DNA of 47,970 bases, filler included, from Porpidia crustulata (lineage: Eukaryota): NCBI GenBank assembly GCA_964255105.1. It is 2 parts of 2 records of this genome, joined end to end, with 100 filler letters (N's around TTAATTAATTAA, not from the genome) between each part and the next. Parts side by side here need not be neighbours in the genome. Positions count along the whole stretch, not along the records: positions 1 to 23,964 come from CAXUWE010000065.1; 1 more part is not named here. The stretch is one strand, 5' to 3'. Position numbers and translations under genes: made by a program. How positions within the stretch are numbered: the first letter of the stretch is position 1; each line of letters opens with the position of its first letter. Below the pieces are notes generated by a model. It saw only the letters and a list, made by a program, of their open reading frames with translations. It was not told the origin of the DNA and made no database searches. Below are positions 2,347 to 46,784 of this stretch, piece after piece.

Positions 2347-5300
2347 AGTGCAAGTATATACCAGAAGTGATAAAAGACAAAGATGGAGAGAATTCAAGAA
2401 TCTTCCTAAGGATGGAACTACTGGGAGAATGAAGCGTGAGCGACAGCTCGAAATAAGGGAATATATGTAGACACGAGATAATGGACAGGCTTGAAGTGGA
2501 GTCAAGAGACATTAGGTCAACAGATCCCGTCTCGACAGTAGCACTGCAGGCACTTGGTGCGCCAGCATGTTGGAGGGACATTTCGAGATTCCTGTTTGGG
2601 CTCAGAAAGTATAATAAGCTGGCTGCCTGACCGCTCGAAACGCTGGATTCGACGATGCTCCATAGTATGTGCAAGAGCAGACATGTCGTGAAGAACGTGG
2701 TGTAGCATGGTAGAGTGGTGTTTGGTGACAATATGTCATTTGGCTTGCTCCGCTGACGATAACCCTAAGCTCCCTCCCGGCCTAGCGGTGTGCATTTCCC
2801 CGCAGTCTATATTTGCTGCAGAGCATAGAGAGAGCTGTTCTTCGGGTCTGGGGTGGGTCAGTCATCTGCCATCTACTCGTGGTAGAAAGACGATTAAGCG
2901 CCGCAGAATAAGTGTTTGTCTTCTCTCCGTTCGGTTTGCCAAGATACTCAGGAGGATGGCGAGGTAGACATGTGCTAGCCACTGGTACACCGAGTGCAGT
3001 GCCCTTTGCAGAGCAGAAAGCCTGGACTACCATTTGCACCACTCGTGGGTTGGAGTGACTTGCAGCCTCCAAGTGGGTGGAGAGATGAGTCCACTGGAGG
3101 AACGGGATGCAGTGCGACGGGAGGGTAGCTTCTGTGACCTGCATACATGGGGAAGGTGCGGCGGTAGTCGTCCACTAGCGCCAACACCAGTATCATAAGG
3201 TGCTCAAGCTTTTTCTTGTACAAATCACCTACCGTCCTACCTCTCCACTACAGCTGCATGAACAATCGTCTATTTTAGTGTCCGCTCTTGGATCAATCCC
3301 CACCCGTAGAGTGCTCGGCACTCCGGATCCTCTCCCCTTATTCAAGTGCGGCTTCCTCGCCCCACGACCGTAAGTCATTCGACCGAGCTGCACTCCTCGA
3401 AATGACATCCCGGCCGTCAAGGTGACAAGTCCAGATGATCCAAGGTCTAGTGTATTGCACAAGTTGTCGTGTTATCACGATTCCTGAGATTGTCCACGGT
3501 GCATTTATCCTCTCAGGATTCCTGGCTCCGCAATCAGGAAACTTGGACTGACGGAGGCTGTCAGGGTTCCACGAGAAAAAGTTCATCACACGTTGGAGAG
3601 GTCGAGCGTGCGGACAGGGTGACGTGACACCCATTGGGATTTGTGCGCGCCGAGACAAAAGCTTAATCAGACTTCGACTCCGCATTTAGCAACTAGGTAT
3701 CTGCTACACTGAGCAGAGAGATTGTACATGTCAATGTTGCAGAACAGCTGTGCATGAAGGAACTGCAACCTGTTGATCGTGTAACGATGTCAATAGTATA
3801 TTGTACTTGATAGAGGTGAGAGGTAAGGTAGACCCATCGACGTGGTTGAGGGGTAAGTGGCAGTTCATTCGTTGTCGGCATTCGATGGGCCGAGGGCTAG
3901 TCGTGCAGACGACTGCGTACACATGAGACACAAAAAACAGTCGAACGAACCACTTCTATGACGAGTCTTCCTTGCTTTGCATCCTCCACCAGGTTGCAGC
4001 TACTTCGATGGGGCATGGCCTGCGTTCCCAGTATCGATTCGCTGTCCATAAAGCAGGATCGCTGCAGATCCTACGGTAACCACAATCACCATAAATTCCC
4101 GTATGCATCTCGATAGCCGTACCGGTCAATCAAGCCGGCTTTGCTGCAAGTGTACTGTTGTTGCTTATAGACGGCGTGAAGACGGAGCTGGCCCTGACTT
4201 GCGTTGAAGTATGTGAAGGAGAGAATTGGCGCTACCAGAGCTGTCTGGTTACTCTTGCTTGCCAGGCGGATTCAAGTCTGGCTAGATTCAACGACACCAG
4301 AGAATCGATCATGGTAAAATTGAATTAGCGCTTGTCAAAGATCTAGAGTGTAAAGCAAATATTGGACAACGCGCAACGATCGAGGCAACGGGGGGCTACT
4401 AGACCAACTGTCGCCGTTTAACTGGGGCTGAATGGAATCGGAGAGACCGTCGTAGTGACGGCCGAAGCGGTACTCAATGAAGCGCTGTTGCTGATGGCCA
4501 AGACCGAGCTTTGGAAGATGGGAAAAGCTACGACAGTTGCAGTTGACGTGGTGCATATAACCTGGGTGCCTATCGAGGCTCGCGTGGAAAAGGCATTGTT
4601 TGGACTGGACTGTTGGCCACTGCTAAGTATAACTTCGATGCGGCACTTAAATGTATAAGAGAAGCGCCCTATGGTGTATTCTGAGCACTCAGTAGTGTTG
4701 ATGAAGCGTCTCGCGCCTGAATCCGTGCCGACAAAGGGAGCAGGTTTTGGGCCTGGATCATTTCGTTTTATGTAGATGACTGGGAATCTTGTGCCGTACA
4801 GTATCAAGACGTTTAGGTTTGTAGATTAGAAGTTTTGATCTCAATGTAAGTAAGGTATTTGATATCATAGAGACAAGTTCCTGCGTCACAACCGCTTGAG
4901 TAATCCTACGAACCTCTCACATGGGAGCGGCTCCGAAGAGTCGATTGGATTTCAAATGCCAATAAACTGCTACTTACTAAGGTTCGGTTGCGGCTAGAGC
5001 AATATTGTTCGCGAGCGGTCCAGACGCTGAGACTGTAAATCGTCGATATGGTCGACATTATCCGAATTGATACCTGTTTACTGGATTTCGCGATGCTGGC
5101 TTAGAGACTAACGGAGTTTAGGCAACCTGCCTTTTGATCATCACCACCCCTAGTATCGCATATTGTGATGACCAGATTCCATCCGATAAGTGAATATGGA
5201 GAACAAATCCAGACAAAGGCGGTTATAATCTTTGAAAAGCATAAATAAACATCAAGATTGGAATAGACATGACGTAGAGCGAAGGCTGCCAGATCAAACT

Positions 5301-6081: not shown

Positions 6082-6742
6082 TCAGTCTTGACCATCCCTC
6101 TCGGTCTTCAAAGCCTCCATCTTCTTCCTCGCCTGGCGCAAGCTCTTGAACAGGCTAACATCCAATGGCAGCTTTTCACCCATCCAAGTAGCCCGCTGCG
6201 TGTGATCCCTCTCCTCCTCATCCGTGTTTGGATGTACCAACGCACTCAACGGGCCTCTGTTGATCACCAGCCAGGGTATGAACGCGCCAAACTGCACGGG
6301 GGTGAATAGATTGACTTCGAACATCGCCGCTGGGTGCGGTCCAATAGGCCTATCCCAAACTTTATAGATCCGAAGTTCGGGGAACTCCCTACGGATGCGT
6401 TCCCACAAGGCAACGGCGAATTTGACCTGCTCGGGGTCATTCTGTCGGAATGTTTAGCATTGGGTCTCTTCGACGGCGAGGTGCTCAGACGTGGAAGAAA
6501 TATATGTGGATATCGAAGCCACCTCGCTTGCCATTGTTGATGGGTGACACGAAGCTTTTGTACGAGTTACTGAGGACGTTGCTTGACGGATTGACAAAAC
6601 TTTTGCCGTCGCTGCTTTTCTCGCTAAAGCTTCGTTAGGCGCGAGACGACATCTCGTCGCAATGCACATACTTTGGGAGCGGTGGCAGACTCTCGTAACC
6701 CTCGAGCGGTGATGGGTAGCTGTACAATGACGGATCCGCCAT
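6082..6742 (-). CDS. DOPA 4,5-dioxygenase-family (DOPA_dioxygen) protein; 3 exons
   Basis: Spliced reading MADPSLYSYPSPLEGYE...GGFDIHIYFFH...ALWERIRREFPELRIY...PIGPHP.AMFEVNLF...WL.INRGPLSALVHPNT..E.RDHT.RATWMG. These are the His-containing motifs of this family. Confidence 0.88.
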
Positions 6743-8231: not shown

Positions 8232-8738
8232 TCAATGATGCACCCCCGTCTGATTCGACGCGTTCCTCAAGCCCGAGCAACCATCACAATTCGAACAGTT
8301 CACGCAGTCCACGCAGTCGTCACAGTTGGAACAATTAGTGCAGCGCGTGCAGTAATCGCAGTTGGAGCAGTTCCTGCAGCTTTTGCAATTGTCGCAATTT
8401 GTGCAGTTGTGATAATCTGTACAGTTGTCGTTGTTGCTGCCGTTGGCGTTTACGTCCAGAAGGAGCGCAGCCGGAGGATTAAGGGCGTAATGGGTTGCAG
8501 CAAAAGCTGTGCCGCCGGCCAGTAGCAAGTAGCTCAGAATGGGGTTTGAAATCTTTGAGAAGGCGCTTTTTTGATTCTTTTGTAGCCTTGTTAGGCTTAT
8601 CGAGAACGGGCGAGGGTGGTTGCTGTTGTAGGTATGCTTGTATGATCCCTTCCAATAAATCAAACAACGGTGACTGGTCAGACGAATAGCTCTGAGTCCT
8701 TGGTAGGCCGTTTGACACATTCTGGATAGGATCCTCAT
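8232..8738 (-). CDS. Cys-triplet (Cxx)n repeat protein with putative mitochondrial presequence and transmembrane segment
   Basis: 168-aa single ORF. The N-terminal ~90 aa are Arg/Lys/Ser-rich and lack Asp/Glu. A hydrophobic segment (ILSYLLLAGGTAFAATHYAL) follows, then 16 Cys spaced every third residue. Confidence 0.7.
   Translation of the reverse strand: MRILSRMCQTAYQGLRAIRLTSHRCLIYWKGSYKHTYNSNHPRPFSISLTRLQKNQKSAFSKISNPILSYLLLAGGTAFAATHYALNPPAALLLDVNANGSNNDNCTDYHNCTNCDNCKSCRNCSNCDYCTRCTNCSNCDDCVDCVNCSNCDGCSGLRNASNQTGVHH
8277..8423 (-). repeat. Coding tandem repeat: 9-nt (Cxx) unit with 36-nt (12-aa) super-period
   Basis: CTD YHN CTN CDN CKS / CRN CSN CDY CTR / CTN CSN CDD CVD / CVN CSN CDG CSG. 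Synonymous codons vary (TGT/TGC), so it is not a simple microsatellite. Confidence 0.85.
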
Positions 8739-23964: not shown

Positions 23965-24064
23965 NNNNNNNNNNNNNNNNNNNNNNNNNNNNNNNNNNNN
24001 NNNNNNNNTTAATTAATTAANNNNNNNNNNNNNNNNNNNNNNNNNNNNNNNNNNNNNNNNNNNN
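23965..24064. other. Assembly gap with artificial six-frame-stop linker
   Basis: 44 N + TTAATTAATTAA (24009-24020) + 44 N = exactly 100 nt. A purine-only low-complexity tract (~23815-23915) precedes it. Confidence 0.95.
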
Positions 24065-44994: not shown

Positions 44995-46784
44995 CTATAT
45001 GTTATAGGAAAATTGTATGTCAGTCTCAAGCTGTTTAAGCATATCAGGTATGTCATGAAGGGTAGGTCGCCTTTTTGCCGCAGCTTGGATACTGTTGTGG
45101 TCCTCGCCACATACTCTCGCCTCTAAGAAGTCCTCTGCTTCGGCAACCCGGATCTTCCACCACGTCTTCGCTGCTCGTTGTGTCCTTGATTCATCTCCTT
45201 CGACCGTACCTCCAGCTTCACCAACGGGGACGAAGACGCCCCTTTCAAGATCAATATACACACTCCTACCTCTCGAGAGATCCAACTCGTTTGCCCCAGC
45301 TATGCATCTTTCAATCCAGCCCTTCAACACCTCCGGTATCCTTCAGATTTCCGGAAACCGCCACGAGCGCTCTTCATCAATCCACGTAGCTACTTCTCGC
45401 GTCATGCACTGACCAGCATCCGTGTAGATGGTAGGCTGTTAATCGAAAATACACCAGAGCGTCTAACCCAACGCAAAAACCGTGGCTGATTCGCACTCCC
45501 TGGCTGAGAGTCGCGTCCAAGCGATATCGCCGGAAGAAGTCGCCTCAGGAGAAGTAGCTACAAGCCGCTGAAGGGCGCTTTTGTAACGTCCAGCGACCTC
45601 ACTCCGAATTGCGGTAGACTTTACTATCAAACCTAGATACCAGATGCAATCGACCTCGGGCGCAATCCATGAGATCCAGCCTCGGCGCTGCTTAAAATCA
45701 ATCAGTACGGCATCGCCATCAGCGGTCAACATGACGTTGTCGGGCTTCAAGTCGCCATGATACTTTGCTATCGTGTGCTTGTGGATATGGAGGAAGGCGG
45801 AGGTGATTTGGCGGGACCAACGGATGCGGTCGAGAAACGGTGTAGTGCACTCGACGCTCAGAGCCTCAAGAAGTGAACCACCGTGATAGTAGGGAAGGAT
45901 GAAATCGCAGATGCCGAGTTTGGGAGTCCCCGTGACGACGTACAGCGGTCGAGCGGAGATATTCGGGGGTGAAGCCATGGAAAGTAGAAGTTTCAGCTCG
46001 TGGTATGTTGTCGTAAGGTTGGAGGCGAAACGAGCCGGCTGAACAACCTTGAATACGAAGAGGGTGGTTTGGTCGAGGAGAAGTTGAATAGAGACGATGC
46101 TGATGAGTTTATTTTTATGGTCGATTAGCTCGAGGCTCGAGAGTTGTATCGATTCAATAGCTAGATCTAGTTCCTGATCCGTTGGCGACTGCCAAACCTC
46201 TTGCAGCTCCTTTAAGGACAACAATTCGTGGTCAAGCTCACGTTCGGAGCCATGCTAATCTGGATATTGTGGACATCGCTGGCGATGTTCTGGACTACGA
46301 TGCGCGATCTGAATGGCAGGCTCAGGTATTTTCTCTCAAAGTTGGGAATATGTGAGGACCACACCGTCAGGCCATGCAGGACGTGTCGAGAGATACCTAG
46401 ATTGGCGACTTGACTTGACGGGCATTTCATAGTCGCGCCAGATTGGAGAAGCAGACGCAGCGCATGAGGGTGCTGTCTTTGGTCTGGGATGTAGACATCG
46501 ATATGGAGAGGTGGACGGCCAATGGCAAAACGCGGATACGTATAGAATTGTCTGCCGTTGCCAAAACATCCTGACAGTCTCCACTGTATGAGTGTCGTAA
46601 AACCAATAGCAGATACTAGAGTGTCAACTTGGTTCTTAGGATTCAGTGGGGAAATGTTCCATACATTGCTGTTTGGAGGTTCGGATTTGCTAATATTAGG
46701 TAGCAGCTCATCTGGGGGTGCTAGGGGTAGTACAGCTGCCACTGGACTCCTAAGCGTTCTATAGACAAGTTGCGACGGCTCCAT
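44995..46784 (-). pseudogene. Fungal protein kinase-like pseudogene
   Basis: FVFK, YHELKLLL, YHGDLKPDNVML, LIDFKQ, W.APEV, VFALG*TLWCIF and terminal RPTL. Frameshift near 46240, plus three in-frame stops (TAG 45463-45465, then TAA and TGA shortly downstream). Confidence 0.82.

What the first reader, a model, noticed from the sequence alone, without database searches (positions are those of the whole stretch)
8232..8738. Cys-every-third-residue solenoid protein apparently targeted to the mitochondrial intermembrane space
Seen: 16 Cys at strict 3-aa spacing with a 12-aa super-repeat (CxN-CSN-CDx-Cxx)x4, an Asn ladder, capping triplets (LRN ASN QTG V) and a terminal HH. The preceding ~94 aa contain no Asp/Glu, are Arg/Ser/Leu-rich (RPFSIS), and end in a hydrophobic stretch followed by ...ALLLD. 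Established: this layout resembles bipartite IMS-sorting presequences (cytochrome b2, Mcr1 type). Known IMS Cys proteins use twin CX3C/CX9C motifs, not (CX2)n, and 12-aa Cys/Thr repeats form beta-helices in beetle antifreeze proteins. Inference: this could be an undescribed organellar metal-buffering (Cu/Zn, metallothionein-like), redox or ice-binding beta-solenoid protein.
Basis: partly seen in the sequence, partly recalled or inferred. Interest (0 to 1): 0.8.

Follow-up and report, generated by a model that had tools for sequence, protein, structure and literature searches.

The report
Mitochondria-bound cysteine solenoid of fungi
This is a real fungal gene for a small coil-shaped protein with a cysteine at every third position, resembling beetle and mite antifreeze proteins but carrying what looks like a mitochondrial address tag; its job is untested.

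Summary
The ORF (8232-8738, minus strand) is real. The repeat domain is under purifying selection (dN/dS 0.15-0.17), the 12-residue period is significant, and AF2 gives a tight beta-solenoid whose best solved match is Tenebrio antifreeze protein. The basic, acid-free extension is very probably translated: three orthologues keep an open extension with a Met 98-104 residues before the repeats, matching window Met7 (8720), the likelier start. A sister group, including a Physcia protein, has R-x-Y-N presequence ends. Mitochondrial import is therefore likely (~0.7). The intermembrane space is only one option (~0.4): the hydrophobic segment matches this genome's Mcr1 anchor, but it is weak or missing in two orthologues and the presequence is lost in another lineage. 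The repeat itself is not new. It is a widespread unnamed module (phrog_15341; phage, giant-virus and other fungal proteins), and the same (Cxx)n repeat was described in spider-mite putative antifreeze proteins. No Thr-Cys-Thr ice-binding face is present (0 of 27 sequences). Best reading: a mitochondrial, probably membrane-tethered thiol-core solenoid acting as metal/redox buffer or scaffold. The mitochondrial version was not found in print in ten searches. New variant of a known kind.

The parts
8232..8738 (-). Longest ORF, 168 aa, intronless as far as can be seen; probable coding sequence 8232-8720 (162 aa from Met7)
   Evidence: no other ATG between 8720 and the domain; the one donor/branch/acceptor set upstream gives no in-frame alternative, checked by hand
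8718..8720 (-). Met7, likely true start codon
   Evidence: aligns with the start Met of P0001 and P0002; A at -3 versus C at -3 for Met1
8553..8720 (-). Presequence-like basic region (residues 7-62): Arg/Lys/Ser-rich, no Asp/Glu, net +5 in the first 30 residues
   Evidence: conserved with P0001 (z 6.8, 0 of 1000 shuffles), not alignable with P0002 or P0010
8595..8612 (-). R-P-F-S-I-S (residues 43-48), fits the R-x-F-x-x-S type of MPP/Oct1 cleavage motif (motif recalled); RSFSAS in P0001
   Evidence: pattern match; inference
8481..8540 (-). Moderately hydrophobic, Gly-Gly-containing segment (residues 67-86): candidate stop-transfer or membrane anchor
   Evidence: Kyte-Doolittle max 1.74 (15 aa) and 1.30 (19 aa) versus 1.65 and 1.08 for the genome's own Mcr1-like anchor; conserved with P0001 and P0002 (z about 12)
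8424..8456 (-). Asp/Asn/Gly N-terminal cap of the solenoid (residues 95-105)
   Evidence: conserved in orthologues; a variant of the D-x(1-3)-G-N-x-[ND]-C cap found in 35 of 314 stored proteins, which the window itself does not match exactly
8277..8423 (-). Cys-x-x repeat core, residues 106-154: 16 Cys, four 12-residue coils, Tyr109 in place of a register Cys
   Evidence: AF2 models; dN/dS 0.15-0.17; phrog_15341 E 1.3e-7
8235..8276 (-). C-terminal cap (residues 155-168) continuing the 3-residue register with Leu, Ala, Gln, Val
   Evidence: near-invariant in orthologues and shared with other ascomycete members

Best explanation
A single-copy nuclear gene of a filamentous ascomycete encodes a 162-aa precursor. 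A basic, acid-free presequence takes it into mitochondria by the TOM/TIM23 route, and MPP probably cuts near Arg43. A moderately hydrophobic segment (67-86) most likely arrests it in the inner membrane, so that a 74-residue domain faces the intermembrane space; full passage to the matrix is almost as likely. The domain folds as a capped beta-solenoid of about six 12-residue coils, with every third residue (Cys) pointing into the core and Asn/Ser/Asp ladders outside. Most likely job: a compact thiol store. The stacked cysteines bind Zn/Cu or switch between thiol and disulfide, buffering metal or oxidative stress at the inner membrane. SHOWN here: the ORF, purifying selection, the 12-residue period, conserved caps, and the extension kept open in orthologues. 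PREDICTED: the fold. INFERRED: import, cleavage, compartment and function. Step odds: real gene 0.93; extension translated 0.88; solenoid fold 0.8; mitochondrial 0.7; facing the intermembrane space 0.4 overall; thiol metal/redox role 0.35. The confidence below is for 'a mitochondrially imported Cys-core solenoid whose cysteines serve a thiol/metal role', compartment left open.
For: Domain dN/dS 0.15-0.17 against L002, L003 and L008. Met-to-first-Cys distance 99, 104, 98 and 102 residues in the window (from Met7), P0001, P0002 and P0010, each with at most 4 Asp/Glu and net +4 to +7 in the first 30 residues. Extension conserved window-P0001 and P0001-P0010 (0 of 1000 shuffles each). A sister group (P0007 = Physcia stellaris, P0008, P0016, P0018, P0019) has R-x-Y-N directly before the repeats in 5 of 5, and P0007/P0008 align through the presequence. 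Hydrophobic segment equal to the genome's Mcr1-like anchor. Domain model mean pLDDT 83.7 with a beta-bridge every third residue; best solved match 1ezg (Z 8.4, rmsd 3.6, 76 of 82 aligned; Z 7.2, rmsd 3.3, 73 aligned). The same module sits in proteins that look cytosolic (phage proteins; a GTPase fusion P0014; RING fusions P0038 and P0285; MGC/MGS-starting forms P0039, P0042, P0049, P0063), where reduced thiols are expected (established knowledge). Cys is 16 of 63 residues in 106-168.
Against: No localisation predictor, expression data or metal assay was available. Extensions of the window and P0002 or P0010 do not align beyond chance (575 and 145 of 1000 shuffles). P0001 and P0002 come from unnamed metagenome contigs whose DNA I could not see, so their starts are gene-caller calls. 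A crude presequence filter also flagged probable intron or UTR read-through products such as P0235 and P0240. Nine of nine loci of another lineage (L002-L010) have no in-frame presequence; L008 has a stop there. Register Cys are replaced by Tyr (window), Leu (9 of 9 L-loci) and Arg (2 of 9), which fits a structural core better than strict metal ligands. AF2 is known to over-predict beta-solenoids for repeats (PMC11795689, abstract and section 3.2.8), Foldseek found nothing in the PDB at E<=0.001, and Z 7-8 is within the tool's background range. Neither the window nor the L-loci share neighbours that point to a pathway.
Confidence: 0.4

Rival explanations
1. Same import, but the segment 67-86 is not a stop-transfer signal. 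The whole N-terminal 80-85 residues are a long presequence and the solenoid is a soluble matrix protein, as in the sister group cut at R-x-Y-N.
For: The sister group has no hydrophobic segment before the repeats (max KD19 -0.04 to 1.04). P0010 has none (0.56) and P0002 is weak (0.49) and has R-H-Y in the aligned place. P0001 and P0002 carry a Pro inside the segment, and Pro-rich, less hydrophobic segments favour transfer to the matrix (PMC11452304, passages). No charged cluster directly follows the segment in the window.
Against: The segment is the best-conserved part of the extension (z about 12 versus P0001 and P0002), is as hydrophobic as the Mcr1-like anchor of the same genome, and is kept in L002-L010 even though their presequence is gone.
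Confidence: 0.3
2. The cysteines are simply the packed core of a rigid mini-solenoid that serves as a binding surface or spacer, with no metal or redox role. The module is carried to many places by different N-termini.
For: The module is fused to a GTPase, to RING fingers, to lipid-anchor-like N-termini with PPxY-type motifs, and to diverse phage domains. The number of coils varies widely between members. Non-Cys residues are tolerated in the register and fill it in the caps.
Against: Strong retention of Cys rather than other small residues over long distances suggests chemistry beyond packing (inference). Coil number is fixed at 17 register positions in all members of the window's clade examined.
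Confidence: 0.3
3. An organellar ice-binding or water-ordering protectant (antifreeze or desiccation protectant), with the Asn-Cys-Ser/Thr ladder as the flat face.
For: Best structural match is Tenebrio AFP. P0007 carries a precomputed PF02420 hit. The mite proteins with the same repeat are induced in diapause (PMC4046741, section on antifreeze proteins). NCT and NCS are the two commonest triplets (69 and 48 counts in 27 sequences). One named relative is a lichen fungus.
Against: No Thr-Cys-Thr in 0 of 27 sequences, and Thr is only 7% of the window core. The mite paper itself saw no typical ice-binding surface and tested no activity. No Pfam AFP hit for the window protein. Relatives occur in plant-associated fungi such as Diaporthe, Macrophomina and Phaeosphaeriaceae, not known to me as cold specialists (recalled). 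Known AFPs of this fold are secreted.
Confidence: 0.13
4. The extension is not a mitochondrial signal. The protein is anchored by segment 67-86 in another membrane (outer membrane or ER), or the upstream part is 5' UTR read through in frame.
For: L002-L010 start about 15 residues before the hydrophobic segment and have KRR after it, like a signal anchor. Their upstream DNA is only weakly similar to the window's extension (15 of 500 shuffles reach the score) and has stops in the matching frame. Read-through extensions occur among the hits (P0240, P0279).
Against: In the window there is no ATG in any frame between 8720 and the domain, so a shorter form would need a non-AUG start. Four sequences share the start position within 6 residues and the acid-poor, basic make-up.
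Confidence: 0.2
5. A decaying or spurious ORF.
For: Cys-to-Tyr at 109. Within L002-L010 the domain shows 0-1 synonymous versus up to 4 non-synonymous differences, including Cys losses (very small numbers). Patchy occurrence across fungi.
Against: dN/dS 0.15-0.17 between lineages; intact frame and caps in all orthologues seen; no stop or frameshift in the window.
Confidence: 0.07

Closest known systems
Tetranychus urticae putative antifreeze proteins (Bryon et al., PMC4046741; section on antifreeze proteins part 1, passages and supplementary file 14 read)
   Same: Cys at every third residue in a 12-residue Asn-Cys-Thr type repeat; modelled on 1ezg; no typical ice-binding face; by eye a similar G-N-x-N-C N-cap and a similar basic-residue/Asn/x-T-G C-cap
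   Different: The mite proteins are a tandem multigene family, 17 of 20 with predicted signal peptides. This is a single gene with a presequence-like extension and a hydrophobic segment. Activity was untested in that paper.
Beetle antifreeze protein, Tenebrio molitor TmAFP (PDB 1ezg; Pfam PF02420)
   Same: 12-residue coil, inward residue every third position, best structural match (Z 8.4 and 7.2)
   Different: TmAFP has Cys at two and Ser/Ala at the other two inward positions and a Thr-Cys-Thr ice-binding face, and is secreted. Here all four inward positions are Cys, there is no TCT, rmsd is 3.3-3.6 A, and the profile match is only E 0.25.
Unnamed (Cxx)n repeat proteins of phages, giant viruses and bacteria (phrog_15341; automatic names 'Caib/baif family protein' and 'TNFR-Cys domain-containing protein')
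   Same: Same repeat: phrog_15341 E 1.3e-7; BFVD structural hits at E 1.1e-6 and 3.6e-6; many of the 186 hits
   Different: No function known; no presequence; different flanking domains. The match may partly reflect repeat composition rather than descent.
Bipartite stop-transfer precursors (cytochrome b2, Mcr1 type; PMC8061763 and PMC11452304, passages)
   Same: [quoted passage not shown]
   Different: No charged cluster directly after the segment; Pro inside the segment in 2 of 3 close sequences; segment missing in P0010; passenger is a Cys solenoid, not an enzyme
Twin CX3C/CX9C Mia40 substrates (PMC8061763, passages)
   Same: Small, Cys-rich, possibly in the intermembrane space
   Different: Those are helix-turn-helix proteins without presequence; this has (CX2)n spacing, a predicted beta-solenoid and a presequence
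Metallothioneins (recalled)
   Same: About 25% Cys in a 60-70 residue domain
   Different: Metallothioneins use CXC/CC clusters and have no fold without metal (recalled); this has a strict 3-residue register, caps and Asn ladders typical of a folded solenoid

Membership tests
Beetle AFP (TmAFP, PF02420) | 12-residue repeat with Cys at least every sixth residue | tested here: met
Beetle AFP (TmAFP, PF02420) | Thr-Cys-Thr ice-binding array | tested here: not met
   0 TCT in the window and in 0 of 27 sequences examined
Beetle AFP (TmAFP, PF02420) | Ser and Ala at the alternate inward positions | tested here: not met
   Cys occupies them (coil table)
Beetle AFP (TmAFP, PF02420) | Pfam PF02420 match | tested here: not met
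   no family for the window protein at E<=1 or its domain at E<=10; a precomputed PF02420 label is listed for relative P0007 but was not reproduced
Beetle AFP (TmAFP, PF02420) | Tight beta-helix fold | tested here: inconclusive
   top hit in both VIA searches (Z 8.4 and 7.2, rmsd 3.6 and 3.3), but on predicted models and near background; Foldseek E 0.067
Beetle AFP (TmAFP, PF02420) | Thermal hysteresis activity | not testable with these tools
   needs osmometry
T. urticae putative AFP family | [quoted passage not shown] | tested here: met
   window repeat N-C-[ST]-N-C-D-x-C-x-x-C-x against the paper's consensus
T. urticae putative AFP family | Shared caps and common descent | tested here: inconclusive
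   compared by eye with supplementary file 14; no alignment or tree with the mite sequences was run
T. urticae putative AFP family | N-terminal secretion signal | tested here: not met
   the most hydrophobic stretch starts at residue 67, after a basic region; SignalP not available
Bipartite stop-transfer IMS precursor | Positively charged, acid-free, amphipathic presequence | tested here: met
   net +5 in the first 30 residues, no D/E to residue 94, hydrophobic moment 0.45; composition only, no trained predictor
Bipartite stop-transfer IMS precursor | Hydrophobic segment after the presequence | tested here: met
   KD 1.74/1.30 versus Mcr1-like 1.65/1.08 and Cyc2-like 1.79/1.83 from the same genome; weak in P0002, absent in P0010
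Bipartite stop-transfer IMS precursor | Charged (especially acidic) cluster following a Pro-poor segment | tested here: inconclusive
   the first acidic residue is 14 positions after Ala81; Pro lies inside the segment in P0001 and P0002; rule from PMC11452304 passages
Bipartite stop-transfer IMS precursor | Import, MPP/Imp processing and IMS location | not testable with these tools
   needs import assays
Twin CX3C/CX9C Mia40 substrates | Twin CX3C or CX9C motif in a helical hairpin, no presequence | tested here: not met
   Cys spacing is CX2 throughout; the model has no helix in the domain
Metallothionein | Multi-metal thiolate binding | not testable with these tools
   Cys content fits; no metallothionein family hit
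phrog_15341-type (Cxx)n repeat proteins | Profile match over the repeat | tested here: met
   E 1.3e-7, domain residues 11-62 on profile 35-86 of 276; repeat part only

The most novel reading that the evidence does not exclude
A group of ascomycetes, lichen fungi among them, has repeatedly or once re-addressed an antifreeze-type (Cxx)n solenoid to mitochondria. There it is a new class of Cys-rich organellar protein outside the CX3C/CX9C scheme: a column of four inward cysteines per coil that holds a linear row of metal-thiolate sites or reversible disulfides and protects mitochondria through drying, freezing and rewetting. The same fungal family may be the source, by gene transfer, of the spider-mite 'antifreeze' proteins.
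Probability: 0.17. Interest if true: 0.8.

Novelty: new variant of a known kind. Interest (0 to 1): 0.5.

Why it matters
If the targeting holds, this is a Cys-rich mitochondrial protein of a type absent from the yeast-based inventory: a beta-solenoid rather than a helical hairpin, imported by presequence rather than by Mia40. It also gives a small, intronless, single-domain handle on a widespread repeat that has only misleading automatic names and no tested function. One purified 74-residue domain would show whether the repeat binds metal, forms disulfides or binds ice, and would bear on the untested spider-mite antifreeze claim.

Tried and rejected
Expression: no RNA holder listed; this is not evidence either way. 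Laying contigs of three runs gave one full-length, difference-free contig from run X1, which may be the source of the assembly, and nothing from X2 or X3 at 80% likeness. Exact protein not in the 15-billion collection. Pfam and NCBIfam: no family. ESM Atlas: best scores 0.85-0.88 with low recognition, leads only. Foldseek against the PDB: nothing at E<=0.001. Paralogues in the own genome: three single-protein searches found only this locus, plus two weak hits that are simple repeats on inspection; a four-Cys DNA pattern gave 202 matches versus 112 for the control, of which I saw the first 100, and none of those looked like a second solenoid gene. The assembly is fragmented and intron-split copies could be missed. 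Synteny: none between the window and the seven loci tested by blastn (L002, L003, L005, L006, L008, L011, L012) or the four tested by tblastn outside the gene, so the neighbouring Ssu1/Mae1-type channel and DOPA dioxygenase are not treated as functional partners. An upstream exon supplying another start: one donor-like site (8863) and one branch/acceptor (8812-8781) exist, but by hand the spliced frames from ATG 8899 and 8886 hit stops. An intron joining the open upstream frame of L002-L010 to the domain: no convincing sites by eye. A tree of the last 59 residues of capped members supports the window's clade (0.996) but cannot say whether presequences arose once or twice (repeats aligned by the cap, 19 capped proteins of 314 plus the window, L002, L003). 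Literature: ten searches found no paper on a fungal or mitochondrial (Cxx)n protein and no activity test of the mite proteins; the library lacks most subscription papers. A Coccidioides gene annotated with an insect-antifreeze repeat (PMC3401177, one passage) was not checked for kinship. PMC12492740, PMC7765829, PMC8473546 and PMC2878342 (passages) and PMC13288671 (outline and abstract) added nothing specific. No complex prediction was run, as no binding claim is made.

Full report
Setting. The window is from a filamentous ascomycete: intron-split GH47, MFS, SLAC1 (Ssu1/Mae1-type) and GT15 genes; own assembly 22.9 Mb in 2,447 contigs. The species is not known. A lichen fungus is plausible only because one named relative of the protein is from Physcia stellaris. 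The ORF lies between a DOPA 4,5-dioxygenase gene (about 6082-6453 and upstream) and a SLAC1-family gene (9538 onward), all on the minus strand. These neighbours are not shared with the related loci tested.

Observation. The 168-codon ORF at 8232-8738(-) is as described. Cys lie at 8, 25, 106 and every third residue from 112 to 154; residue 109 is Tyr. So 15 of the 16 domain Cys are strictly spaced; orthologues have Cys at 109 and 17 in register. The 12-residue period is significant in the window (lag-12 identity 0.47, 0 of 5000 triplet shuffles) and in 3 of 3 orthologues. No Asp or Glu occurs before residue 95. Only 2.2% of 100,000 shuffles of the 88 codons from Met7 stay open, and 0.6% of those lack D/E.

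Is it a gene? Yes. A word-based search gave 4 hits among 22 candidates, two of them orthologues at 73% and 63% identity (P0001, P0002). A full HMMER search gave 186 hits at E<=0.001, 150 listed, adding a further orthologue P0010. A metagenome scan confirmed 14 of 300 candidate stretches; nine (L002-L010) are near-identical copies of one orthologue from another lineage. Against three of those, the 74-codon domain has dN/dS 0.15-0.17 (Nei-Gojobori, dS about 1.4-1.6, near saturation). The gene appears single-copy in its own assembly.

Is the extension translated? Very probably. There is no ATG in any frame between 8720 and the domain. P0001 and P0002 start at a Met aligned with window Met7, and Met-to-first-Cys distances are 99, 104, 98 and 102 residues for the window, P0001, P0002 and P0010. 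Met7 also has A at -3, so the protein is probably 162 aa. The basic part aligns beyond chance between the window and P0001 and between P0001 and P0010 (0 of 1000 shuffles each) but not between the window and P0002 or P0010 (575 and 145 of 1000); fast divergence with kept composition is usual for presequences (established knowledge). A sister group with a related C-cap (P0007, P0008, P0016, P0018, P0019) ends its basic extension in R-x-Y-N immediately before the repeats in 5 of 5, a pattern I recall as the MPP R-3 site; P0007 and P0008 align through this region. Against this: I could not see the DNA of P0001, P0002 or P0010; a crude filter for presequence-like starts flagged 21 of 314 stored proteins (9 of 19 capped, 12 of 295 uncapped) and included likely read-through artefacts; and 9 of 9 loci L002-L010 have their first in-frame Met only 63 residues before the repeats, with a stop upstream in L008. 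Their upstream DNA is weakly similar to the window's extension (15 of 500 shuffles) and carries stops in the matching frame, which I read as loss of the presequence in that lineage (inference).

Which compartment? Residues 67-86 are the best conserved part of the extension (z about 12 versus P0001 and P0002). But the segment scores only 0.49 in P0002 and is absent in P0010 and in the sister group. P0001 and P0002 have a Pro inside it, and the window has no charged cluster right behind it. PMC11452304 (passages) states that less hydrophobic, Pro-rich segments pass to the matrix and that following charged, especially acidic, clusters are needed for arrest. I put the intermembrane space at about 0.4, matrix 0.3, non-mitochondrial 0.3.

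Fold. AF2 with a 3-sequence alignment gave pLDDT 73-86 over residues 101-160 and disorder elsewhere. The domain alone with an 8-sequence alignment gave mean pLDDT 83.7, pTM 0.67 and a beta-bridge at every third residue. Among 48,161 solved chains the top match was Tenebrio antifreeze protein 1ezg both times (Z 8.4, rmsd 3.6, 76 aligned; Z 7.2, rmsd 3.3, 73 aligned, tied within 1 with TibA at 6.5). Foldseek found no PDB match at E<=0.001. [quoted passage not shown]

How widespread is the repeat? Very. The domain hits phrog_15341 (unknown function, E 1.3e-7) and two viral structures, from a mimivirus relative and a Campylobacter phage (E 1.1e-6, 3.6e-6; 2 of 443 matches at E<=0.001). Named fungal relatives are hypothetical proteins of Physcia, Diaporthe (two species), Xylariaceae, Lophiotrema, Viridothelium, Phaeosphaeriaceae (two) and Macrophomina. 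Their N-termini differ: none, Met-Gly-Cys/Ser starts that look myristoylated (recalled rule; P0039, P0042, P0049, P0063), PPxY-type motifs, a GTPase (P0014). RING fusions also occur (P0038, P0285). An N-cap D-x(1-3)-G-N-x-[ND]-C is present in 35 of 314 stored proteins (shuffled mean 1.2, maximum 5 in 200 rounds); the window has a longer variant.

Closest described kind. Bryon et al. [quoted passage not shown] By eye all 20 rows start with G-N-x-N-C after an Asp, as the short fungal members do, and their C-ends resemble the fungal cap. The paper found no homologues in four other mites and ticks. A fungal origin of the mite family is an untested inference.

Function. An Asn/Ser face is not excluded. 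The module's presence in apparently cytosolic phage and fungal proteins means it can work with reduced thiols, which fits either metal-thiolate binding or a purely structural Cys core. Tolerated losses of register Cys (Tyr109 here; Leu in 9 of 9 and Arg in 2 of 9 L-loci) favour a robust, redundant role over strict ligand sites. I commit to a thiol metal/redox buffer at about 0.35, with a scaffold role close behind at 0.3. Both are inference.

Verdict. Observation confirmed with small corrections; interpretation partly supported. It works like a TmAFP/mite-type Cys solenoid in fold and like a TIM23 precursor in targeting. It is not a member of the beetle AFP family or of the twin CX3C/CX9C family. 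Ten literature searches found no description of a fungal or mitochondrial form; subscription papers and the mite paper's model file were not visible. New variant of a known kind; interest 0.5.

Noticed in passing
P0024, P0235, P0109, P0031 versus PMC4046741 supplementary file 14: Short fungal members and the spider-mite putative antifreeze proteins share the G-N-x-N-C N-cap and a similar C-cap; the mite family has no reported homologues in other mites, so a fungal origin by gene transfer is possible. Compared by eye only.
   Followed up: partly
L002-L010, about 160 bases upstream of the first in-frame ATG (e.g. L003:5785-5943): Three different upstream flanks (L002, L003-type, L006) join at the same point just before the conserved stretch. 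A second frame stays open for 124 codons in L003 and begins with an ATG only in L002. It looks like a presequence or promoter region being rearranged.
   Followed up: partly
P0007, P0008, P0280: A two-domain version: presequence, solenoid, basic linker, second solenoid and, in P0007 and P0280, a C-terminal hydrophobic segment followed by an Arg cluster. Likely a membrane-anchored mitochondrial paralogue type; P0007 is from Physcia stellaris.
   Followed up: partly
P0039, P0042, P0049, P0063, P0101, P0014: Other fungal members combine the solenoid with Met-Gly-Cys/Ser starts and PPxY-type motifs, or with a GTPase domain, which suggests a membrane-associated, ubiquitin-ligase-linked cytosolic form.
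   Followed up: no
window 6082-~7050(-) and 9538-~11200(-): The gene is flanked by a DOPA 4,5-dioxygenase gene (PF08883) and a SLAC1-family Ssu1/Mae1-type channel gene (PF03595). Not conserved in the related loci.
   Followed up: partly
L054 (G000:C143, about 3900-4300, + strand): A Gly-x-y collagen-like open frame in the own fungal assembly; its reverse strand gives spurious Cys-Thr-Pro repeats.
   Followed up: no
window 23965-24008 and 24021-24064: Two runs of 44 N; only 1-23964 maps to contig C65, so the rest of the window is other sequence and gene order across this point is not real evidence.
   Followed up: yes
L003:922-3636(+): A polyketide synthase end with KR, ACP and a C-terminal carnitine acyltransferase domain lies upstream of the orthologue in L003, whereas L002 has an AMP-binding enzyme there.
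   Followed up: no
window 45463-46784(-): Two kinase-like ORFs (PF00069 hit for 45463-45978; none for 46212-46784), possibly pieces of one divergent fungal kinase gene.
   Followed up: no
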